Positions 6,237-10,206 of a stretch of 10,410 nucleotides of DNA are shown here, one piece after another (within the stretch, counting starts at the first letter, position 1; every line of letters begins with the position of its first letter). The position numbers were made by a program, and so were the translations under genes. Source of the DNA: an uncultured archaeon (GTDB lineage Archaea; Asgardarchaeota; Heimdallarchaeia; Heimdallarchaeales; Heimdallarchaeaceae); the NCBI GenBank assembly GCA_964534625.1, contig CAZHRF010000054.1, positions 1 through 10,410 of the forward strand, in the 5' to 3' direction. Below the pieces are notes generated by a model, which was not told where the DNA came from, did no database searches, and saw only the letters and a list, made by a program, of their open reading frames with translations.

Positions 6237-7538
6237 TTAACGGGAATTCATCTTTTGTTTGTATTGTTGAGTTTTATGATACCTTCTCTTTTTGATTTTA
6301 TCAATGTTAGTTTTACATATGGGACAATGTTCTTTCATCGAGATCCACATACTTAAATGATTATGATGAAAAACATTTTTGCAGTTAGGGCAGAATGAAA
6401 CATGATTTTTTTGTTCAATGTTCATGTTGCAAACGTAACATTTAGGCAATTGTCTTCCACAATAACGGCAAAATGATGCGTCTTTCTTATTCGAGATTGA
6501 ACAATAAGGACAAGCATATTTACGTTTTAACACTTTTTTTGGTACGCGTGCTGTTTTATACACAAATAATCTTGTATTATCCAGTTTTTCTCCCAGTTCG
6601 TCTCTATTATCAACAATTGGTTTAATAATTGCAATCAGACAAACAAATGAACTCAACCCTAATCTAAACTCTAGTGTTTGTTCATAAGTTATGAAAAACA
6701 ATCCGATCCCCAACCCAAAGAGGAGAAAATAGTTTCTGATAATAACCCATTTGAATATTTCCCATGTATATCTAACAGCTAGTTTTAGTACCTCCCCTAG
6801 CCACTTTAGAAAACGCCAGAAAAGATTTGGAAAACGGATAATCCCCCGTCCGATAGTTTTTAAAAGTGTAATGATTAAATCAAATAAAGATTTTAACATG
6901 TTCCATAGTTGCTTTCTGAAATGAATAGTTAGTGTAAGAAGTATCAAACCTGCCCCAATTAGATAATTTAACACAGGAAAAAGCCATGGTATCTGGTCTA
7001 TCGCAGTTAAAACAATATAACATACACCAGAAACAAAAAATATATTCCATGGAGATATAAACAGTTTCCAATTAACTTGCTCGAGTATATCTAAGAAATT
7101 ATGCCAAGTTGTGTTAAGAAACCGAATAATTTTAACATTCAGATCATATGTTTCTGAGAAGAAGCCTATTAAGATTAAAAATAGCCCTCCAAATATTAAT
7201 ATAAAATTCCAGAACTCTTTTGCAAATAGACTAAAACCAAGGGCAAAAGTAATTGAAGGTAAAGCTAATACTAAAAAGCCAATATAAGCGATAATAGCTC
7301 CAGCAACAAAATAATCTATACCTTTTTTGTTTAATCGTCTAATAAGTAGTCCAAAAAAGCCTATAAGAAAACCTAAAACCATAACTCCCATACCCCAATT
7401 AGAATATTGACCTGAAAAGAACATATTTGTAAAAATGACGATCAACATTCCAAGCAGAGAAATAGCGAATCCTGTCCATAAAATAGGAATAACATCAAGT
7501 GTTTTGTGCTTTTTTTGTTTTTGTTTTTTAGTAAACAT
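6237..7538 (-). CDS. Multi-pass membrane protein (about 8 TM) with C-terminal zinc ribbon and RING-finger domain; putative membrane E3 ubiquitin ligase
   Basis: Hydrophobic segments with amphipathic linkers in residues ~15-310. Zinc ribbon C343-x2-C-x10-C-x2-CG. RING C367-x2-C-x12-C-x2-C-x4-H-x2-H-x3-W-x6-C-P-x-C408 (nt 6440-6315). ATG overlaps the upstream stop (TAATG), with AAGGAGGT SD at 7556-7549. Confidence 0.85.
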   Translation of the reverse strand: MFTKKQKQKKHKTLDVIPILWTGFAISLLGMLIVIFTNMFFSGQYSNWGMGVMVLGFLIGFFGLLIRRLNKKGIDYFVAGAIIAYIGFLVLALPSITFALGFSLFAKEFWNFILIFGGLFLILIGFFSETYDLNVKIIRFLNTTWHNFLDILEQVNWKLFISPWNIFFVSGVCYIVLTAIDQIPWLFPVLNYLIGAGLILLTLTIHFRKQLWNMLKSLFDLIITLLKTIGRGIIRFPNLFWRFLKWLGEVLKLAVRYTWEIFKWVIIRNYFLLFGLGIGLFFITYEQTLEFRLGLSSFVCLIAIIKPIVDNRDELGEKLDNTRLFVYKTARVPKKVLKRKYACPYCSISNKKDASFCRYCGRQLPKCYVCNMNIEQKNHVSFCPNCKNVFHHNHLSMWISMKEHCPICKTNIDKIKKRRYHKTQQYKQKMNSR

Positions 7539-9613
7539 TAGTCAAAAAACCTCCTTTTAATAAAATCGCCAATATTCTGCGACTTTTTGCTTCTTTCTTC
7601 AATTTTCCGCGCAATCATCTTTTTTATTTGATTGATAAGCAATATTATAGATATAATTCCCAGAACTATAAACATAAGCCCCATACTTGTTTTTACTGCG
7701 CTAGTGGCATTTGCGAATAAATTCAAGAAATCACTACCAAAGGTTAAAGCGATACCATATACTGTAGAGAACGACATAACAGAGAATAATAAAATCAACA
7801 AAATATTGTTATAGATAAAACGAGCGATAGTTTTTATACCATTCCAAATTGCTCTGAATATATCGGGTATTTTTTGAATTATTTGTTTGATTCTGTTCAA
7901 ATCAAAGATTAAACGTGCAAAAAGTAAGAACACAATACCAAAGATTAATGATAAAAGCGAATAAAGATTACTGCCAATATTATTTCTGACAACAATACTA
8001 GATATTATTAATGCTAGACCAACCAAACGAACACAGAAATAGAATCTTCTAACAAGAAATTCCCAAAACATCTTGGGATAGCCTATCCATTTAGCAAATA
8101 GGAACATCACACCACCCAATATTATTAGTACTATCCATTGGGTTGCCCAACTATTGATTATACCGAAAATTAACGAAACAATAATTAAACAAAAGCCTGT
8201 AAATCGTATAAGAGATACTCTATTTCTCTTTATATATTGAAAAACAGACTTTCGTGAAAAAATTAGAGAAATAGGGATCAATAGTGACCCAATGACTATC
8301 TGTACAGTAGCGAGAGTTGGACTAATCTGCCCACTTTTTCGCCATATAGAACCATAAATAATTAATAAAATGCCCAATGAAGCTCCAATTAATCTTAATA
8401 ATTCAAGAAACACTTTTTTGAAATTTCTACTAATAAAATAGTACAATTCAGAAAAAATAGTTTTTATAGCAGTCCACCAACCCAAGAAAACTTTTTCTCT
8501 TGAGAAGTATTCGCCTATCAAAATCAATGAAATACCCGAAAAAACAACAAAACTTTTGAACCCTCCGTCTATAATCGTTTTTGCATAAAAAAGCAGATAA
8601 ACACCAGAGGTAGCAACTAACAATCTAATAGTTTCTTTTAAAAGTATGACATAATGTTTTTTGATGAATTCGATAATTGATACAAGAACATTATATATCC
8701 CACTAAATAGGTCTCCAATGAAATCAAGAACAACTTTTCTTGATAATATTTCAGCTACAATGGAAATGGTTATACCCAAATACAATAATGGTAAGGGAAT
8801 CAGCTCTTTTATTGCTAAAACAACAATAACTATACCTCCAGCAAATACAATCAAACGCAAAGACTCTTTAATAATAACGATATAATGTGTGGAAATAAAG
8901 GAAAATAATTTTTTGAAAAAATCAACCAAGGACATAATAATTGTCTGGAAGACAAATTCGTTGAAGAACCAGTTAATGAAACGCCATATCCTTTTTGAAT
9001 GATGAGCGATCAGATAAAACCAACATGCACTAAAAGCCAAATAAACAAACCACACATTTTCCCATCTTAGTAATAAGAATATTATTCCTCCCAACGCACA
9101 TAGATCAAGTGTGTACAACACTATCGGACGAATATTTTCAATTAAAAAGTTAAACACATGTTCCATTCCCACCCATATTCTCTTTAAAGTGTGTTTTATT
9201 CCATTCCATATTACTTCATCTAATAGTGTTAATTCAAAAAAAGCACCCAAACCTAACAGTCCCAAACCCCAATAAACATAAACAATTTGCCCAAAGAAAG
9301 GTAAAGGTAAGAGCTTTTTTGATATAGAAACAATAATAAATAAGAAACCCACAATAATAGCAAAAATACCCAATTGCGAGTTCTTATCTACTTCTAAATT
9401 CTTCCTGAATAATCTGTAAGCAATATAAAAAACTAAGATACATGAATCAACTATTAACGCCATCAAAAGGATGTTTATAGGCAAAGCAAAATCAGCAAAT
9501 AGAGACAATAAAACCGTAGTTGCAATTATTAATATAACAAATAAATAATACGAAGCGTTTAGAAAATAATCTAAGAAAGGATTCTTAGATTCATCCTTTT
9601 TTTCACTATACAT
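7538..9613 (-). CDS. Large multi-pass membrane protein with internal TM-hairpin/amphipathic-helix repeats; function unknown
   Basis: 691 aa, roughly 16-18 hydrophobic segments by eye, three repeats at an exact 77-aa period, N-terminal region colinear with the downstream RING protein. Confidence 0.85.
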   Translation of the reverse strand: MYSEKKDESKNPFLDYFLNASYYLFVILIIATTVLLSLFADFALPINILLMALIVDSCILVFYIAYRLFRKNLEVDKNSQLGIFAIIVGFLFIIVSISKKLLPLPFFGQIVYVYWGLGLLGLGAFFELTLLDEVIWNGIKHTLKRIWVGMEHVFNFLIENIRPIVLYTLDLCALGGIIFLLLRWENVWFVYLAFSACWFYLIAHHSKRIWRFINWFFNEFVFQTIIMSLVDFFKKLFSFISTHYIVIIKESLRLIVFAGGIVIVVLAIKELIPLPLLYLGITISIVAEILSRKVVLDFIGDLFSGIYNVLVSIIEFIKKHYVILLKETIRLLVATSGVYLLFYAKTIIDGGFKSFVVFSGISLILIGEYFSREKVFLGWWTAIKTIFSELYYFISRNFKKVFLELLRLIGASLGILLIIYGSIWRKSGQISPTLATVQIVIGSLLIPISLIFSRKSVFQYIKRNRVSLIRFTGFCLIIVSLIFGIINSWATQWIVLIILGGVMFLFAKWIGYPKMFWEFLVRRFYFCVRLVGLALIISSIVVRNNIGSNLYSLLSLIFGIVFLLFARLIFDLNRIKQIIQKIPDIFRAIWNGIKTIARFIYNNILLILLFSVMSFSTVYGIALTFGSDFLNLFANATSAVKTSMGLMFIVLGIISIILLINQIKKMIARKIEERSKKSQNIGDFIKRRFFD
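7549..7556 (-). promoter_or_regulatory. Shine-Dalgarno sequence for the RING membrane protein, embedded in the upstream gene
   Basis: ACCTCCTT on + reads AAGGAGGT on -, 10 nt before the ATG at 7538. Confidence 0.7.
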
Positions 9614-9702: not shown

Positions 9703-10206
9703 CTAATCTTCTCCCATTAATAATTCGATTAGTTCTTGCGCCCTGTTTTTCACTACTTCCGACATTTTTTCAAATGTTTTGACAGTATTAACTTGAACAC
9801 CTATCAGAACAAAATTTTTATCATATTCGAATATGGTTTTTTTTAATTCAGTAAAAGGTATTTGATGTGTAGATATAGGTTTGAGAGCATTTTCAATTTT
9901 TGAAGAAATATAAATTGTTCCAGGCTGTGCATCCATATCTATTGCGTCAATAAAAACAACCGATTGAATGGTATTATCTTCTATGACTTTAAGAACAGCA
10001 GAAGAAACATCGATATCCCTCTCAATATATACATTAGCGTATTTCTTTTTCAAGACATCACCAACTATAATGCCAAAAGCATCATCTGCTCTATCCATAT
10101 TTCCAAGACAGATGAAAGCAGTCTTAGATAAATCTAAAGAAGCATTTGATGCATAAAAATTGTTTTTTAGTCCTGAAAAGGTCAAATTATCACTGGATAA
10201 AAACAT
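9703..10206 (-). CDS. hycI: Hydrogenase maturation endopeptidase (peptidase A31, HycI-like)
   Basis: ICLGNMDRADDAFG, VVFIDAIDM...PG, ISTHQIP, LIGVQ and MSEVV motifs; 167 aa; AAGGA at 10217-10213 upstream. Confidence 0.85.
   Translation of the reverse strand: MFLSSDNLTFSGLKNNFYASNASLDLSKTAFICLGNMDRADDAFGIIVGDVLKKKYANVYIERDIDVSSAVLKVIEDNTIQSVVFIDAIDMDAQPGTIYISSKIENALKPISTHQIPFTELKKTIFEYDKNFVLIGVQVNTVKTFEKMSEVVKNRAQELIELLMGED

What the first reader, a model, noticed from the sequence alone, without database searches (positions are those of the whole stretch)
6237..7538. Prokaryotic multi-pass membrane protein with a C-terminal RING finger: ERAD-like E3 ligase architecture
Seen: about 8 TM segments, a zinc ribbon (C343-C360), then C-x2-C-x12-C-x2-C-x4-H-x2-H-x3-W-x6-CPxC (367-408), including the Trp and CP motif that contact E2 enzymes in eukaryotic RINGs. 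Established: eukaryotic membrane quality-control ligases such as Hrd1/gp78 and Tul1 combine a multi-TM domain with a cytosolic C-terminal RING, and Asgard and Aigarchaeota archaea encode ubiquitin/E1/E2/RING systems. Inference: a membrane-anchored ubiquitin ligase for membrane protein turnover in a prokaryote. Only the architecture is shared; I see no sequence homology of the TM part to Hrd1.
Basis: partly seen in the sequence, partly recalled or inferred. Interest (0 to 1): 0.8.

Follow-up and report, generated by a model that had tools for sequence, protein, structure and literature searches.

The report
Asgard membrane RING ligase with partner
A Heimdall-group Asgard archaeon encodes an eight-helix membrane protein whose cytoplasmic tail is a zinc ribbon plus a eukaryote-type RING finger, always co-translated with a large repeat-built membrane protein; it is probably a membrane-embedded ubiquitin ligase complex, but it is not related to the eukaryotic ERAD ligases and its activity is untested.

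Summary
It has 8 TM segments, a C4 zinc ribbon (C343-C360), and C-x2-C-x12-C-x2-C-x4-H-x2-H-x10-C-x2-C (367-408) with W398 and CP406.

All 13 Cys/His/Pro are invariant in 108 relatives. The finger is most similar to RING-H2 E3s (EL5 3.6e-6). The model (pLDDT 92-96 there) superposes on RNF165 at 1.1-1.8 A.

Three relatives lose ligands 1, 2, 5 and 6 together and keep 3, 4, 7 and 8. That fits a cross-brace, not serial ribbons. K+R is 34 inside and 1 outside, so the RING faces the cytoplasm. The genome has ubiquitin (GG end), E1s, two active E2s, JAB and Cdc48.

New here:
- The gene always follows a 500-1285-aa repeat-built membrane protein (20 of 20 loci).
- The membrane domain occurs only in its own class, and sister-family versions lack the RING.
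- No ubiquitin-system gene is linked to it.
- The membrane domain matches nothing known, Hrd1 included.

"ERAD-like" is therefore an analogy only. This scan found the same family earlier in another genome (e1-5639176). Public records call members hypothetical proteins.

The parts
6237..7538 (-). Gene for the 433-aa 8-TM / zinc-ribbon / RING protein (P0001)
   Evidence: ORF found. About 28 full-length family representatives. AF2 model with mean pLDDT 87.3.
6534..7538 (-). Membrane domain, residues 1-335: 8 TM helices plus cytoplasmic amphipathic helices 131-154 and 208-268
   Evidence: Helix positions. K+R is 34 on the predicted inside and 1 outside. No Pfam, NCBIfam, Atlas or PDB fold match. 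The domain is found only in the window's own class: 45 of 400 phylum genomes.
7137..7157 (-). Most conserved membrane-domain motif, S-E-T-Y-D-L-N (residues 128-134), at the cytoplasmic end of TM4
   Evidence: E129, L133 and N134 are invariant or nearly invariant in 22 family members that are otherwise about 20% identical.
6459..6512 (-). C4 zinc ribbon, C343-x2-C346-x10-C357-x2-C360
   Evidence: The four Cys are invariant in 108 sequences. Pfam Zn_Ribbon_1 and DZR hits. The ribbon is also present in the RING-less sister-family versions.
6315..6440 (-). RING finger, residues 367-408, ligand order C4H2C2. Proposed site 1 is C367, C370, H391, H394. Proposed site 2 is C383, C386, C405, C408. E2-contact positions are V369, W398, P406 and K409.
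   Evidence: Sequence and family matches. Conservation. Structure matches. Ligand co-loss and exchange.
7538..9613 (-). Upstream partner gene: 691-aa polytopic membrane protein (P0243) built of repeats about 83 aa long
   Evidence: Self-alignment shifted by about 83 residues gives E 7.5e-42. A large polytopic gene sits directly upstream in 20 of 20 family loci. No Pfam or NCBIfam family.
7536..7555 (-). Translational-coupling junction: AGGAGG (7550-7555), an 11-nt spacer, then TAATG, in which the partner's stop codon and the RING gene's ATG share one base (7538)
   Evidence: Sequence read. The same abutting or overlapping arrangement occurs in related loci.

Best explanation
The gene encodes the RING subunit of a two-protein membrane complex found only in Heimdall-group Asgard archaea.

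Shown by sequence and modelling:
- The protein crosses the membrane eight times, with both ends in the cytoplasm.
- Its C-terminal tail holds a C4 zinc ribbon followed by a cross-braced RING finger. The RING is homologous to eukaryotic RING-H2 domains.
- The canonical C-x-H (ligands 3 and 4) is replaced by a C-x2-C knuckle, and ligand 6 is His. This gives the order C4H2C2.
- The residues that eukaryotic RINGs use to hold an E2 are kept across the family: V/I after ligand 1, the helix Trp, the Pro of the final CPxC, and a K/R after the last Cys.

Inferred:
- The RING recruits one of the cell's ubiquitin-charged E2 enzymes to the cytoplasmic face of the membrane. It promotes ubiquitin transfer to lysines of proteins held by the membrane domain and its partner.
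- The partner is the repeat-built polytopic protein that is co-translated from the overlapping upstream gene.
- The substrates are probably membrane proteins, or the partner itself. Their fate could be Cdc48/proteasome extraction or ubiquitin-ESCRT sorting; the data do not say which.

The membrane pair is older than the RING. Sister-family versions have the same membrane domain, a zinc ribbon and an even larger partner, but no RING. The ligase module was therefore added to an existing membrane machine of unknown function.
For: RING identity:
- phmmer against PDB finds EL5 (3.6e-6), RNF165/ARK2C (1.5e-5), RNF24, Arkadia, RBX2 and RNF38.
- Pfam zf-RING_2 covers 2-44 of 44 positions.
- AF2 pLDDT is 92-96 over residues 340-410.
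- Structure matches: RNF165 at rmsd 1.1-1.8 A over 47-51 residues with 29-33% identity, RNF4 in complex with E2~Ub, and the Prp19 U-box at Z 7.7.

Cross-brace:
- P0010, P0021 and P0103 have lost C367, C370, H391 and H394 together. They keep C383, C386, C405 and C408.
- Five relatives without C383 carry the canonical His at position 388 instead.

E2-contact positions in 108 sequences: V/I369 100%, W398 81% (plus Y 8%), P406 100%, K/R409 61%.

Topology: K+R 34 inside, 1 outside.

The ubiquitin system is present in this genome:
- Four UQ_con hits. Two of them have HPN plus the catalytic Cys, and two are UEV-like.
- A 77-aa ubiquitin ending in GG.
- Five ThiF/E1 hits, three JAB hits and two Cdc48 hits.
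- About 11 paralogous RING proteins, including one inside a Ubl/E1/E2/JAB cluster.

Archaeal RINGs of this kind act as E3s in vitro. Examples are the C. subterraneum srfp, which has the same shifted C3/H4 (PMC5654768), and a Helarchaeia RING E3 (bioRxiv 10.1101/2023.07.25.550441).

Partner:
- A polytopic gene lies directly upstream in 20 of 20 loci.
- The junction is TAATG with a Shine-Dalgarno-like AGGAGG.
- Partner orthology across families: hhalign E 1.4e-7, against 0.26 for a reversed control.
Against: - No Ub, E1, E2 or JAB gene lies within about 8 kb in any of 20 loci, so nothing in gene context ties this RING to the ubiquitin system.
- The closest structural match for the whole ribbon+RING module is the C-terminal domain of IFT144/WDR19 (Z 10.0), followed by GATOR2 subunits. 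To my knowledge, not tested here, those RINGs serve as scaffolds rather than ligases.
- The Pfam zf-RING_2 score (24.7 bits) is below the 27.3-bit cut-off. Pfam's only above-threshold call is 'double zinc ribbon'.
- The ligand order is not canonical.
- Sister-family versions work without a RING.
- Two full-length family members (P0010, P0021) have lost zinc site 1.
- No substrate, activity or binding partner has been shown.
Confidence: 0.6

Rival explanations
1. The zinc ribbon plus RING is a non-catalytic assembly or binding module. It would hold the membrane complex together, or bind ubiquitin or a peptide, as the ribbon+RING ends of GATOR2 and IFT-A subunits are thought to do. No ubiquitin transfer would be involved.
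For: - The best whole-module structural match is the IFT144/WDR19 C-terminal domain (Z 10.0, 93 residues). Several GATOR2 chains have Foldseek probability 0.98-1.0.
- ESM Atlas matches are IFT121/IFT144 zinc-finger clusters.
- Pfam zinc_ribbon_16 scores 27.4 bits against a 27-bit cut-off on the isolated tail.
- There is no ubiquitin gene linkage.
- RING-less sister versions exist.
- Some members have lost zinc site 1.
Against: - The four positions that contact E2 in active RINGs are kept across a family that is otherwise about 30% identical.
- Sequence similarity is highest to active RING-H2 ligases.
- Archaeal RINGs tested so far are active E3s.
Confidence: 0.25
2. The Cys/His region is three serial zinc ribbons (a DZR-type domain) and not a cross-braced RING. 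It would act as a generic zinc-ribbon tail, for example in nucleic-acid or protein binding.
For: - Pfam DZR scores 30.9 bits, above its 27.3-bit cut-off, over residues 343-386 of the isolated tail.
- The spacing C-x2-C-x12-C-x2-C could by itself form a ribbon.
Against: - Ligands 1, 2, 5 and 6 are lost together while 3, 4, 7 and 8 are kept in three relatives.
- C383 and His388 replace each other among relatives.
- The model superposes on RNF165 at 1.1-1.8 A.
- There is end-to-end alignment to RING-H2 domains.
Confidence: 0.05
3. The protein is a true evolutionary relative (ancestor or offshoot) of a eukaryotic membrane ligase such as Hrd1/gp78, Doa10/MARCH6 or Tul1. On this view eukaryotic ERAD descends from this system.
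For: - The general layout is shared: a multi-pass membrane domain followed by a cytoplasmic C-terminal RING.
- There are weak RING-only sequence hits to synoviolin (E 0.1) and AMFR (E 0.15-0.5).
- The host is an Asgard archaeon.
Against: - The membrane domain has no sequence or fold match to any solved chain above the background level for helical proteins (all Z < 8). It has no Pfam or NCBIfam hit.
- It occurs in only one class of the phylum.
- The RING was added late, because sister versions lack it.
- The Hrd1 and gp78 RINGs are weaker matches than many soluble RING-H2s.
Confidence: 0.03

Closest known systems
Eukaryotic RING-H2 E3 ligase domains (EL5, RNF165/ARK2C, Arkadia/RNF111, RNF24, RNF38, RBX2; Pfam zf-RING_2 PF13639)
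   Same: - Significant sequence similarity over the whole finger (E 3.6e-6 to 1e-2).
- The same beta-beta-alpha fold in the model (rmsd 1.1-1.8 A).
- The same F-H-x2-[C/H]-[LI]-x2-W ... CPxC core and E2-contact residues.
   Different: - Ligands 3 and 4 form a C-x2-C knuckle in place of C-x-H.
- Ligand 6 is His, so the order is C4H2C2 instead of C3H2C3.
- The Pfam score is just below the cut-off.
- A zinc ribbon always sits directly in front.
Archaeal small RING finger protein (srfp) of Ca. Caldiarchaeum subterraneum and the Asgard operon RING E3s (PMC5654768; bioRxiv 10.1101/2023.07.25.550441)
   Same: - An archaeal RING of RING-H2 type. The srfp paper also reports a displaced C3/H4 with an extra Cys.
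- The genome also carries Ub, E1 and E2.
- These relatives are experimentally active E3s.
   Different: - Those proteins are small and soluble, and they are encoded inside Ub/E1/E2 operons.
- This one is an 8-TM protein encoded away from any ubiquitin gene, with its own membrane partner.
Eukaryotic polytopic membrane RING ligases (Hrd1/synoviolin, gp78/AMFR, Doa10/MARCH6, Tul1 of the Dsc complex)
   Same: - The architecture is shared: a multi-pass membrane domain, a cytoplasmic RING, and work with other membrane subunits.
- The function may also be analogous.
   Different: - No detectable homology of the membrane domain.
- A different RING ligand order.
- The partner is a repeat-built protein of no known family.
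- The RING was acquired within one archaeal class.
C-terminal zinc-ribbon + RING modules of IFT-A (IFT144/WDR19, IFT121, IFT122) and GATOR2/SEACAT subunits
   Same: - The tandem ribbon+RING module as a whole matches best: 8fh3_C with Z 10.0 over 93 residues.
- Atlas clusters with Zf_2nd_IFT121 and Zf_IFT144_1st match it.
- phmmer gives E 0.04-0.06 to WDR19 over both fingers.
   Different: - Those modules end beta-propeller/alpha-solenoid coat-like proteins, not membrane proteins.
- Sequence similarity is marginal.
Six-TM RING protein in this genome's second Ubl/E1/E2/JAB cluster (contig C72; scan note e1-5621799)
   Same: - The same genome and the same RING type (phmmer 1.2e-6).
- Polytopic, with the RING at the C-terminus.
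   Different: - The membrane domains show no detectable similarity: a search with residues 1-335 finds only itself.
- That protein sits inside a conjugation operon. This one does not.

Membership tests
RING-H2 finger (Pfam zf-RING_2, PF13639) | Score at or above Pfam's gathering cut-off (27.3 bits) | tested here: not met
   20.4 bits for the whole protein and 24.7 bits for the isolated tail, with full-length coverage 2-44 of 44. Seven paralogues in the same genome do pass.
RING-H2 finger (Pfam zf-RING_2, PF13639) | Ligand order C3H2C3 (C-x2-C ... C-x-H-x2-H-x2-C ... C-x2-C) | tested here: not met
   The order here is C-x2-C-x12-C-x2-C-x4-H-x2-H-x10-C-x2-C. In the alignment to EL5, the canonical His4 position is Asn388 and Cys6 is His394.
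RING superfamily (cross-braced binuclear treble clef) | Cross-brace: ligands 1, 2, 5, 6 form one zinc site and ligands 3, 4, 7, 8 form the other | tested here: met
   Three relatives lose 1, 2, 5 and 6 together and keep 3, 4, 7 and 8. The model superposes on RNF165, RNF4 and Prp19. Model coordinates could not be inspected and no metal was modelled.
RING superfamily (cross-braced binuclear treble clef) | E2-contact residues: aliphatic after ligand 1, helix Trp, Pro after ligand 7, basic 'linchpin' after ligand 8 (definition recalled from established RING-E2 structures) | tested here: met
   V/I369 100%, W398 81%, P406 100%, K/R409 61% of 108 sequences.
RING E3 ligase (function) | Stimulates ubiquitin transfer from a charged E2 | not testable with these tools
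   This needs an in vitro assay.
Hrd1/gp78 ERAD ligases | Membrane domain homologous to the Hrd1 membrane domain | tested here: inconclusive
   No sequence family hit. No Hrd1 chain appears among the rows shown in the fold searches, where all helical matches have Z < 8. The 433-residue model was searched whole, so single-domain sensitivity is limited.
RING-CH / RINGv (MARCH, Doa10; Pfam PF12906) | C4HC3 ligand order with a C-x-C pair at ligands 3/4 and a longer spacer before the His (spacing recalled from memory) | tested here: not met
   The spacing is C-x2-C-x4-H-x2-H. PF12906 is not among the Pfam hits at E<=1.
PHD finger (C4HC3) | C4HC3 ligands and a PHD fold | tested here: not met
   Ligand 6 is an invariant His. 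Pfam PHD is not among the hits at E<=1. The structure matches shown are RING and U-box domains. The C-x2-C-x4-H spacing does resemble PHD.
Double zinc ribbon (Pfam DZR, PF12773) | Score at or above the gathering cut-off (27.3 bits) | tested here: met
   30.9 bits on the isolated tail over residues 343-386, but 24.9 bits on the whole protein. The match joins the real ribbon to the first half of the RING. The ligand co-loss pattern argues against a serial-ribbon reading.
Prok-RING_1 (Pfam PF14446) | Score at or above the gathering cut-off (29.1 bits) with full coverage | tested here: not met
   22.9 bits, covering only 6-32 of 54 positions.
Operonic archaeal ubiquitylation system (Ub, E1, E2, srfp, Rpn11) | The RING gene is encoded in a cluster with Ub, E1 and E2 | tested here: not met
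   No Ub, E1, E2 or JAB homologue in 20 family loci of 4.5-17 kb. These genes lie on other contigs of the genome.

The most novel reading that the evidence does not exclude
The 8-TM RING protein and its repeat-built partner form an archaeal membrane-embedded ubiquitin ligase that marks membrane proteins for Cdc48/proteasome extraction or ubiquitin-ESCRT sorting. That would be an independent, pre-eukaryotic invention of membrane-protein ubiquitylation. In addition, its ribbon+RING tail may share ancestry with the C-terminal modules of the eukaryotic coat-like proteins of IFT-A and GATOR2.
Probability: 0.2. Interest if true: 0.85.

Novelty: new variant of a known kind. Interest (0 to 1): 0.62.

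Why it matters
[quoted passage not shown] Their soluble Ub/E1/E2/RING cascade has been reconstituted (PMC5654768; bioRxiv 10.1101/2023.07.25.550441). How ubiquitylation first became tied to membranes is not known; that tie is the basis of ERAD, endosomal sorting and organelle quality control.

This family gives a concrete, testable candidate. It is a polytopic protein with a cytoplasmic, apparently E2-competent RING and an obligatory membrane partner. It is present in most genomes of one Heimdall-group order.

It also shows a ligase module being added to an older membrane machine, because sister lineages keep the machine without the RING. That is the kind of domain accretion proposed for eukaryotic E3 diversification.

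In six full-text searches I found no paper describing polytopic Asgard RING proteins. Public records call family members 'hypothetical protein'. That library is incomplete, so prior description elsewhere cannot be excluded.

Tried and rejected
- RING-E2 co-fold. The tail (residues 336-425, 108-row alignment) was folded with the genome's best E2 (46-row alignment). The scores were 0.27, 0.33 and 0.25 against a mark of 0.32, and the tool returned 'no answer'. This counts neither for nor against binding.
- First structure model. With a 2-sequence alignment it was unusable (pLDDT 43). It was replaced by the 108-row model.
- Fold of the membrane domain. The exhaustive VIA-align search of 48,161 chains gave only generic helical matches with Z <= 7.7. 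These included small Mrp/MBH/MBS subunits at Z 6.5-7.1 over TM1-4, which is within background. The ESM Atlas gave nothing for the membrane part, either by features or by shape. No Hrd1, Doa10 or derlin chain appeared in the lists. The model was searched whole, so this is not proof of a new fold.
- Partner protein. It has no Pfam or NCBIfam hit and no Atlas hit.
- Is the RING protein's membrane domain a paralogue of the partner's repeats? hhalign gave probability 39.6%, E 3e-4, score 40, against score 17 for a reversed control. Pairwise BLASTP gave E 0.24, with a recurring 'LIFGxxFLxLIGxF' motif. phmmer found nothing. This is a hint only and is not claimed.
- Internal repeats in the RING protein's own membrane domain were not detected.
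- Sigma-70-type promoter and terminator scans were uninformative for an archaeon: 26 sites found against 25 expected.
- Linkage to the neighbouring hydrogenase, HycI and SPT-like genes is not conserved outside close relatives, so these were treated as bystanders.
Full report
**1. The observation**

The stretch 6237-7538 is one open frame on the minus strand. The plus strand is full of stops. The product (P0001, 433 aa) has eight hydrophobic segments.

There is a ribbon at C343-x2-C346-x10-C357-x2-C360. It is followed by C367-x2-C370-x12-C383-x2-C386-x4-H391-x2-H394-x3-W398-x6-C405-P-x-C408. The only error was the strand.

The pattern is under strong selection. An ortholog 40% identical keeps every ligand. 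I aligned 108 sequences: 29 longer family members plus 79 ribbon+RING pieces from other proteins. The twelve ligands and P406 are the only invariant columns, while mean column identity is 11%.

A profile search of 1.84 billion representative proteins returned 919 hits at E<=1e-3. About 28 of them match end to end at 400-430 aa. The rest share only the ribbon+RING module, in many different architectures.

**2. The organism and its ubiquitin system**

The window lies on a 10.4-kb contig of a 3.37-Mb, 120-contig, 90%-complete genome. Its best E2 is 77-79% identical to proteins named 'Candidatus Heimdallarchaeaceae archaeon'. Family members of the target carry the same organism names and are annotated 'hypothetical protein'. 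The host is therefore a Heimdall-group Asgard archaeon.

The genome contains:
- four UQ_con matches. Two have the HPN motif followed by the catalytic Cys. Two lack the Cys and are UEV-like;
- a 77-aa ubiquitin ending in GG, next to an E1, and a second Ubl ending in Ala-Gly;
- five ThiF/E1 matches, three JAB/MPN matches and two Cdc48 homologues.

It also encodes about eleven further proteins with the same RING type. Seven of them pass Pfam's zf-RING_2 cut-off. At least two others are polytopic, and one sits inside a Ubl/E1/E2/JAB cluster.

**3. Is the finger a RING?**

By sequence, the tail's best matches among solved structures are active RING-H2 ligases: EL5 (3.6e-6), RNF165/ARK2C (1.5e-5), RNF24, Arkadia, RBX2, RNF38 and RLIM. 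Hrd1 and gp78 are far weaker, at E 0.1-0.5.

The EL5 alignment shows what differs from the canon:
- C386 aligns with ligand 3.
- The canonical His4 position is Asn388.
- Ligand 6 (Cys in RING-H2) is His394.
- C383, three residues before C386, has no counterpart in EL5.

Pfam's zf-RING_2 covers the whole finger but scores 24.7 bits against a cut-off of 27.3. The only above-threshold call is 'double zinc ribbon', which joins the true ribbon to the first half of the RING. That raised a real rival reading: three serial zinc sites instead of a ribbon plus a cross-brace.

Two lines of evidence settle this in favour of the cross-brace.

First, the structure model. With the 108-row alignment, AF2 gives mean pLDDT 87.3, and 92-96 over residues 340-410. 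Residues 365-414 superpose on:
- RNF165 at rmsd 1.1-1.8 A over 47-51 residues (29-33% identity);
- the RNF4-E2~Ub complex (rmsd 2.0-2.6 A over 55-58 residues);
- the Prp19 U-box (Z 7.7, 1.5 A over 53 residues).

No PHD finger appears in the lists shown.

Second, natural variation.
- Three relatives (P0010, P0021, P0103; the first two are full-length family members) have replaced C367, C370, H391 and H394 together. They retain C383, C386, C405 and C408. Loss in that combination removes one whole site of a cross-brace. In a serial arrangement it would leave two half-sites.
- Five relatives that lack C383 carry His at position 388, which is the canonical C-x-H. Those with C383 do not. C383 is therefore the replacement for canonical ligand 4.

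The same displacement, with an 'extra' cysteine, was noted in the Caldiarchaeum small RING protein, which is an active E3 (PMC5654768).

The positions that active RINGs use to grip an E2 are kept: V/I369 in 100% of sequences, W398 in 81% (Y in 8%), P406 in 100%, and K/R409 in 61%.

**4. Topology**

The model has membrane helices at 17-40, 46-71, 79-100, 108-127, 165-179, 188-206, 270-283 and 289-310. Two long amphipathic helices (131-154 and 208-268) lie between hairpins.

With the N-terminus inside, the loops predicted to be cytoplasmic hold 34 Lys+Arg. Those predicted to be outside hold one. With eight spans, the ribbon and RING are cytoplasmic, where the E2s are.

**5. The membrane domain and its partner**

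Residues 1-335 match no Pfam or NCBIfam family. They have no ESM Atlas neighbour. No solved fold matches above the level usual for helical proteins (all Z < 8).

The family's most conserved membrane feature is the motif T-E-x-Y-D-L-N at the cytoplasmic end of TM4.

A profile of this domain finds it in 45 of 400 genomes of the phylum, all within the window's own class:
- 23 of 30 genomes in its family;
- 8 of 12 in a second family of the order;
- none in the other roughly 300 genomes.

In every locus examined (8 close relatives, 6 from the second family, 1 from a third, and further ones below), the gene is immediately preceded on the same strand by a large polytopic gene of 500-900 aa. The stop and start abut or overlap.

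In the window the junction reads AGGAGG-11 nt-TAATG.

The window's partner (691 aa) is built from repeats of about 83 residues. Shifted self-alignment gives E 7.5e-42. Partners from the two families are collinear homologues (hhalign E 1.4e-7, against 0.26 for a reversed control).

Other neighbours are not conserved. No ubiquitin, E1, E2 or JAB gene occurs in any of the 20 loci. One locus has a Cdc48 gene about 4.5 kb away.

**6. An older machine that gained a RING**

In a sister family of the same class, the same membrane domain occurs in proteins of 540-1412 aa; both halves match, at E 1e-13 to 1e-20. These proteins have a zinc ribbon but no RING. They are again directly preceded by an overlapping gene for a giant membrane protein of 1010-1285 aa with 20-25 predicted spans.

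The pair is thus the conserved unit, and the ribbon is old. The RING is an addition in the lineage that includes the window.

**7. What it most likely does**

The best-supported reading (about 0.6) is a two-subunit membrane complex. Its smaller subunit presents an E2-recruiting RING at the cytoplasmic face, so that ubiquitin is transferred to proteins engaged by the membrane parts.

The fold, orientation, conservation of E2-contact residues, presence of the cascade, and co-translation with the partner are shown or modelled. E2 binding, ligase activity, the heteromer itself, the substrates and their fate are inferred.

The main rival (about 0.25) is a non-catalytic zinc module. The whole ribbon+RING tandem matches best the C-terminal domain of IFT144/WDR19 (Z 10.0 over 93 residues). 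GATOR2 subunits and the Atlas IFT121/IFT144 zinc-finger clusters come next. From my own knowledge, not tested here, those modules are regarded as scaffolds.

Serial ribbons (0.05) and true kinship with Hrd1, Doa10 or Tul1 (0.03) are disfavoured for the reasons given above.

**8. Comparison with what is known, and novelty**

It works like a polytopic eukaryotic RING ligase, but it is not a member of any of their families. The RING belongs to the RING-H2 lineage, in the archaeal C-x2-C variant.

Archaeal and Asgard RING E3s are established experimentally, but as small soluble proteins encoded in ubiquitin operons. Six full-text searches found no description of polytopic Asgard RING proteins or of this gene pair. 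That library is incomplete.

This scan has met the family before in another genome (e1-5639176), and the same stretch was noted as a coupled pair (e1-5621726). My tests were made independently and agree, except that paralogy between the two proteins is not established.

I class it as a new variant of a known kind: a RING ligase domain in a previously undescribed membrane setting.

Noticed in passing
window 1891-6206 (+), also L012:2511-5559: This is a lipid-type gene trio. It holds a long-chain fatty-acid-CoA ligase (600 aa). Next is an alpha-oxoamine synthase whose best NCBIfam match is serine palmitoyltransferase (455.8 bits, below the 640-bit cut-off). The third gene is an alpha/beta hydrolase. 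The first two also lie next to the ortholog in another genome. This is a possible sphingoid-base or acyl-amino-acid pathway in an Asgard archaeon.
   Followed up: partly
window 9703-10206 (-); L013:3209-7836: A HycI-type hydrogenase maturation protease ends a four-subunit [NiFe] hydrogenase operon (Fe-S subunit, FAD/NAD-binding subunit, small subunit, large subunit). The operon lies just upstream on the longer copy of this contig. It is not conserved next to the RING pair in other genomes.
   Followed up: partly
P0001 residues 337-431 (window 6246-6530): The zinc-ribbon + RING tandem as a unit matches the C-terminal domain of human IFT144/WDR19 (8fh3_C, Z 10.0, 93 residues). It also matches GATOR2 subunits and ESM Atlas IFT121/IFT144 zinc-finger clusters. 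The module is widespread in Asgard proteins (919 profile hits). A shared origin with the ends of eukaryotic coat-like proteins would be worth a phylogeny.
   Followed up: partly
L041-L046, L048 (sister-family genomes G062-G075): RING-less versions of the same membrane domain occur in proteins of 540-1412 aa. They have a zinc ribbon and long regions of no known family. Each is directly preceded by an overlapping gene for a 1010-1285-aa protein with 20-25 predicted membrane spans.
   Followed up: partly
P0010, P0021, P0103 (relatives): These are natural variants in which RING zinc site 1 is gone (ligands 1, 2, 5, 6) and site 2, the Trp and CPxC are kept. This is a half-U-box-like state within the family.
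   Followed up: yes
genome contigs C91:4947-6707, C72:4291-5403, C16:28346-30409, C53:14048-17119, C5:67793-70777: The genome has about eleven further proteins with the same C4H2C2 RING. They include a 4-TM and a 6-TM protein and three proteins of 690-1020 aa with no TM segment. The 6-TM protein lies in a cluster with a Ubl ending in Ala-Gly, an E1, an E2 with an insertion before its catalytic Cys, and a JAB peptidase.
   Followed up: partly
L040:7322-9439 (genome G010): A Cdc48 homologue lies about 4.5 kb from the RING pair, on the same strand, in one genome only. It was seen once, so it may be coincidence.
   Followed up: no
window 420-1691 (-): An M20-family peptidase (423 aa from a TTG start), transcribed divergently from the acyl-CoA ligase gene. 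It appears ordinary.
   Followed up: no
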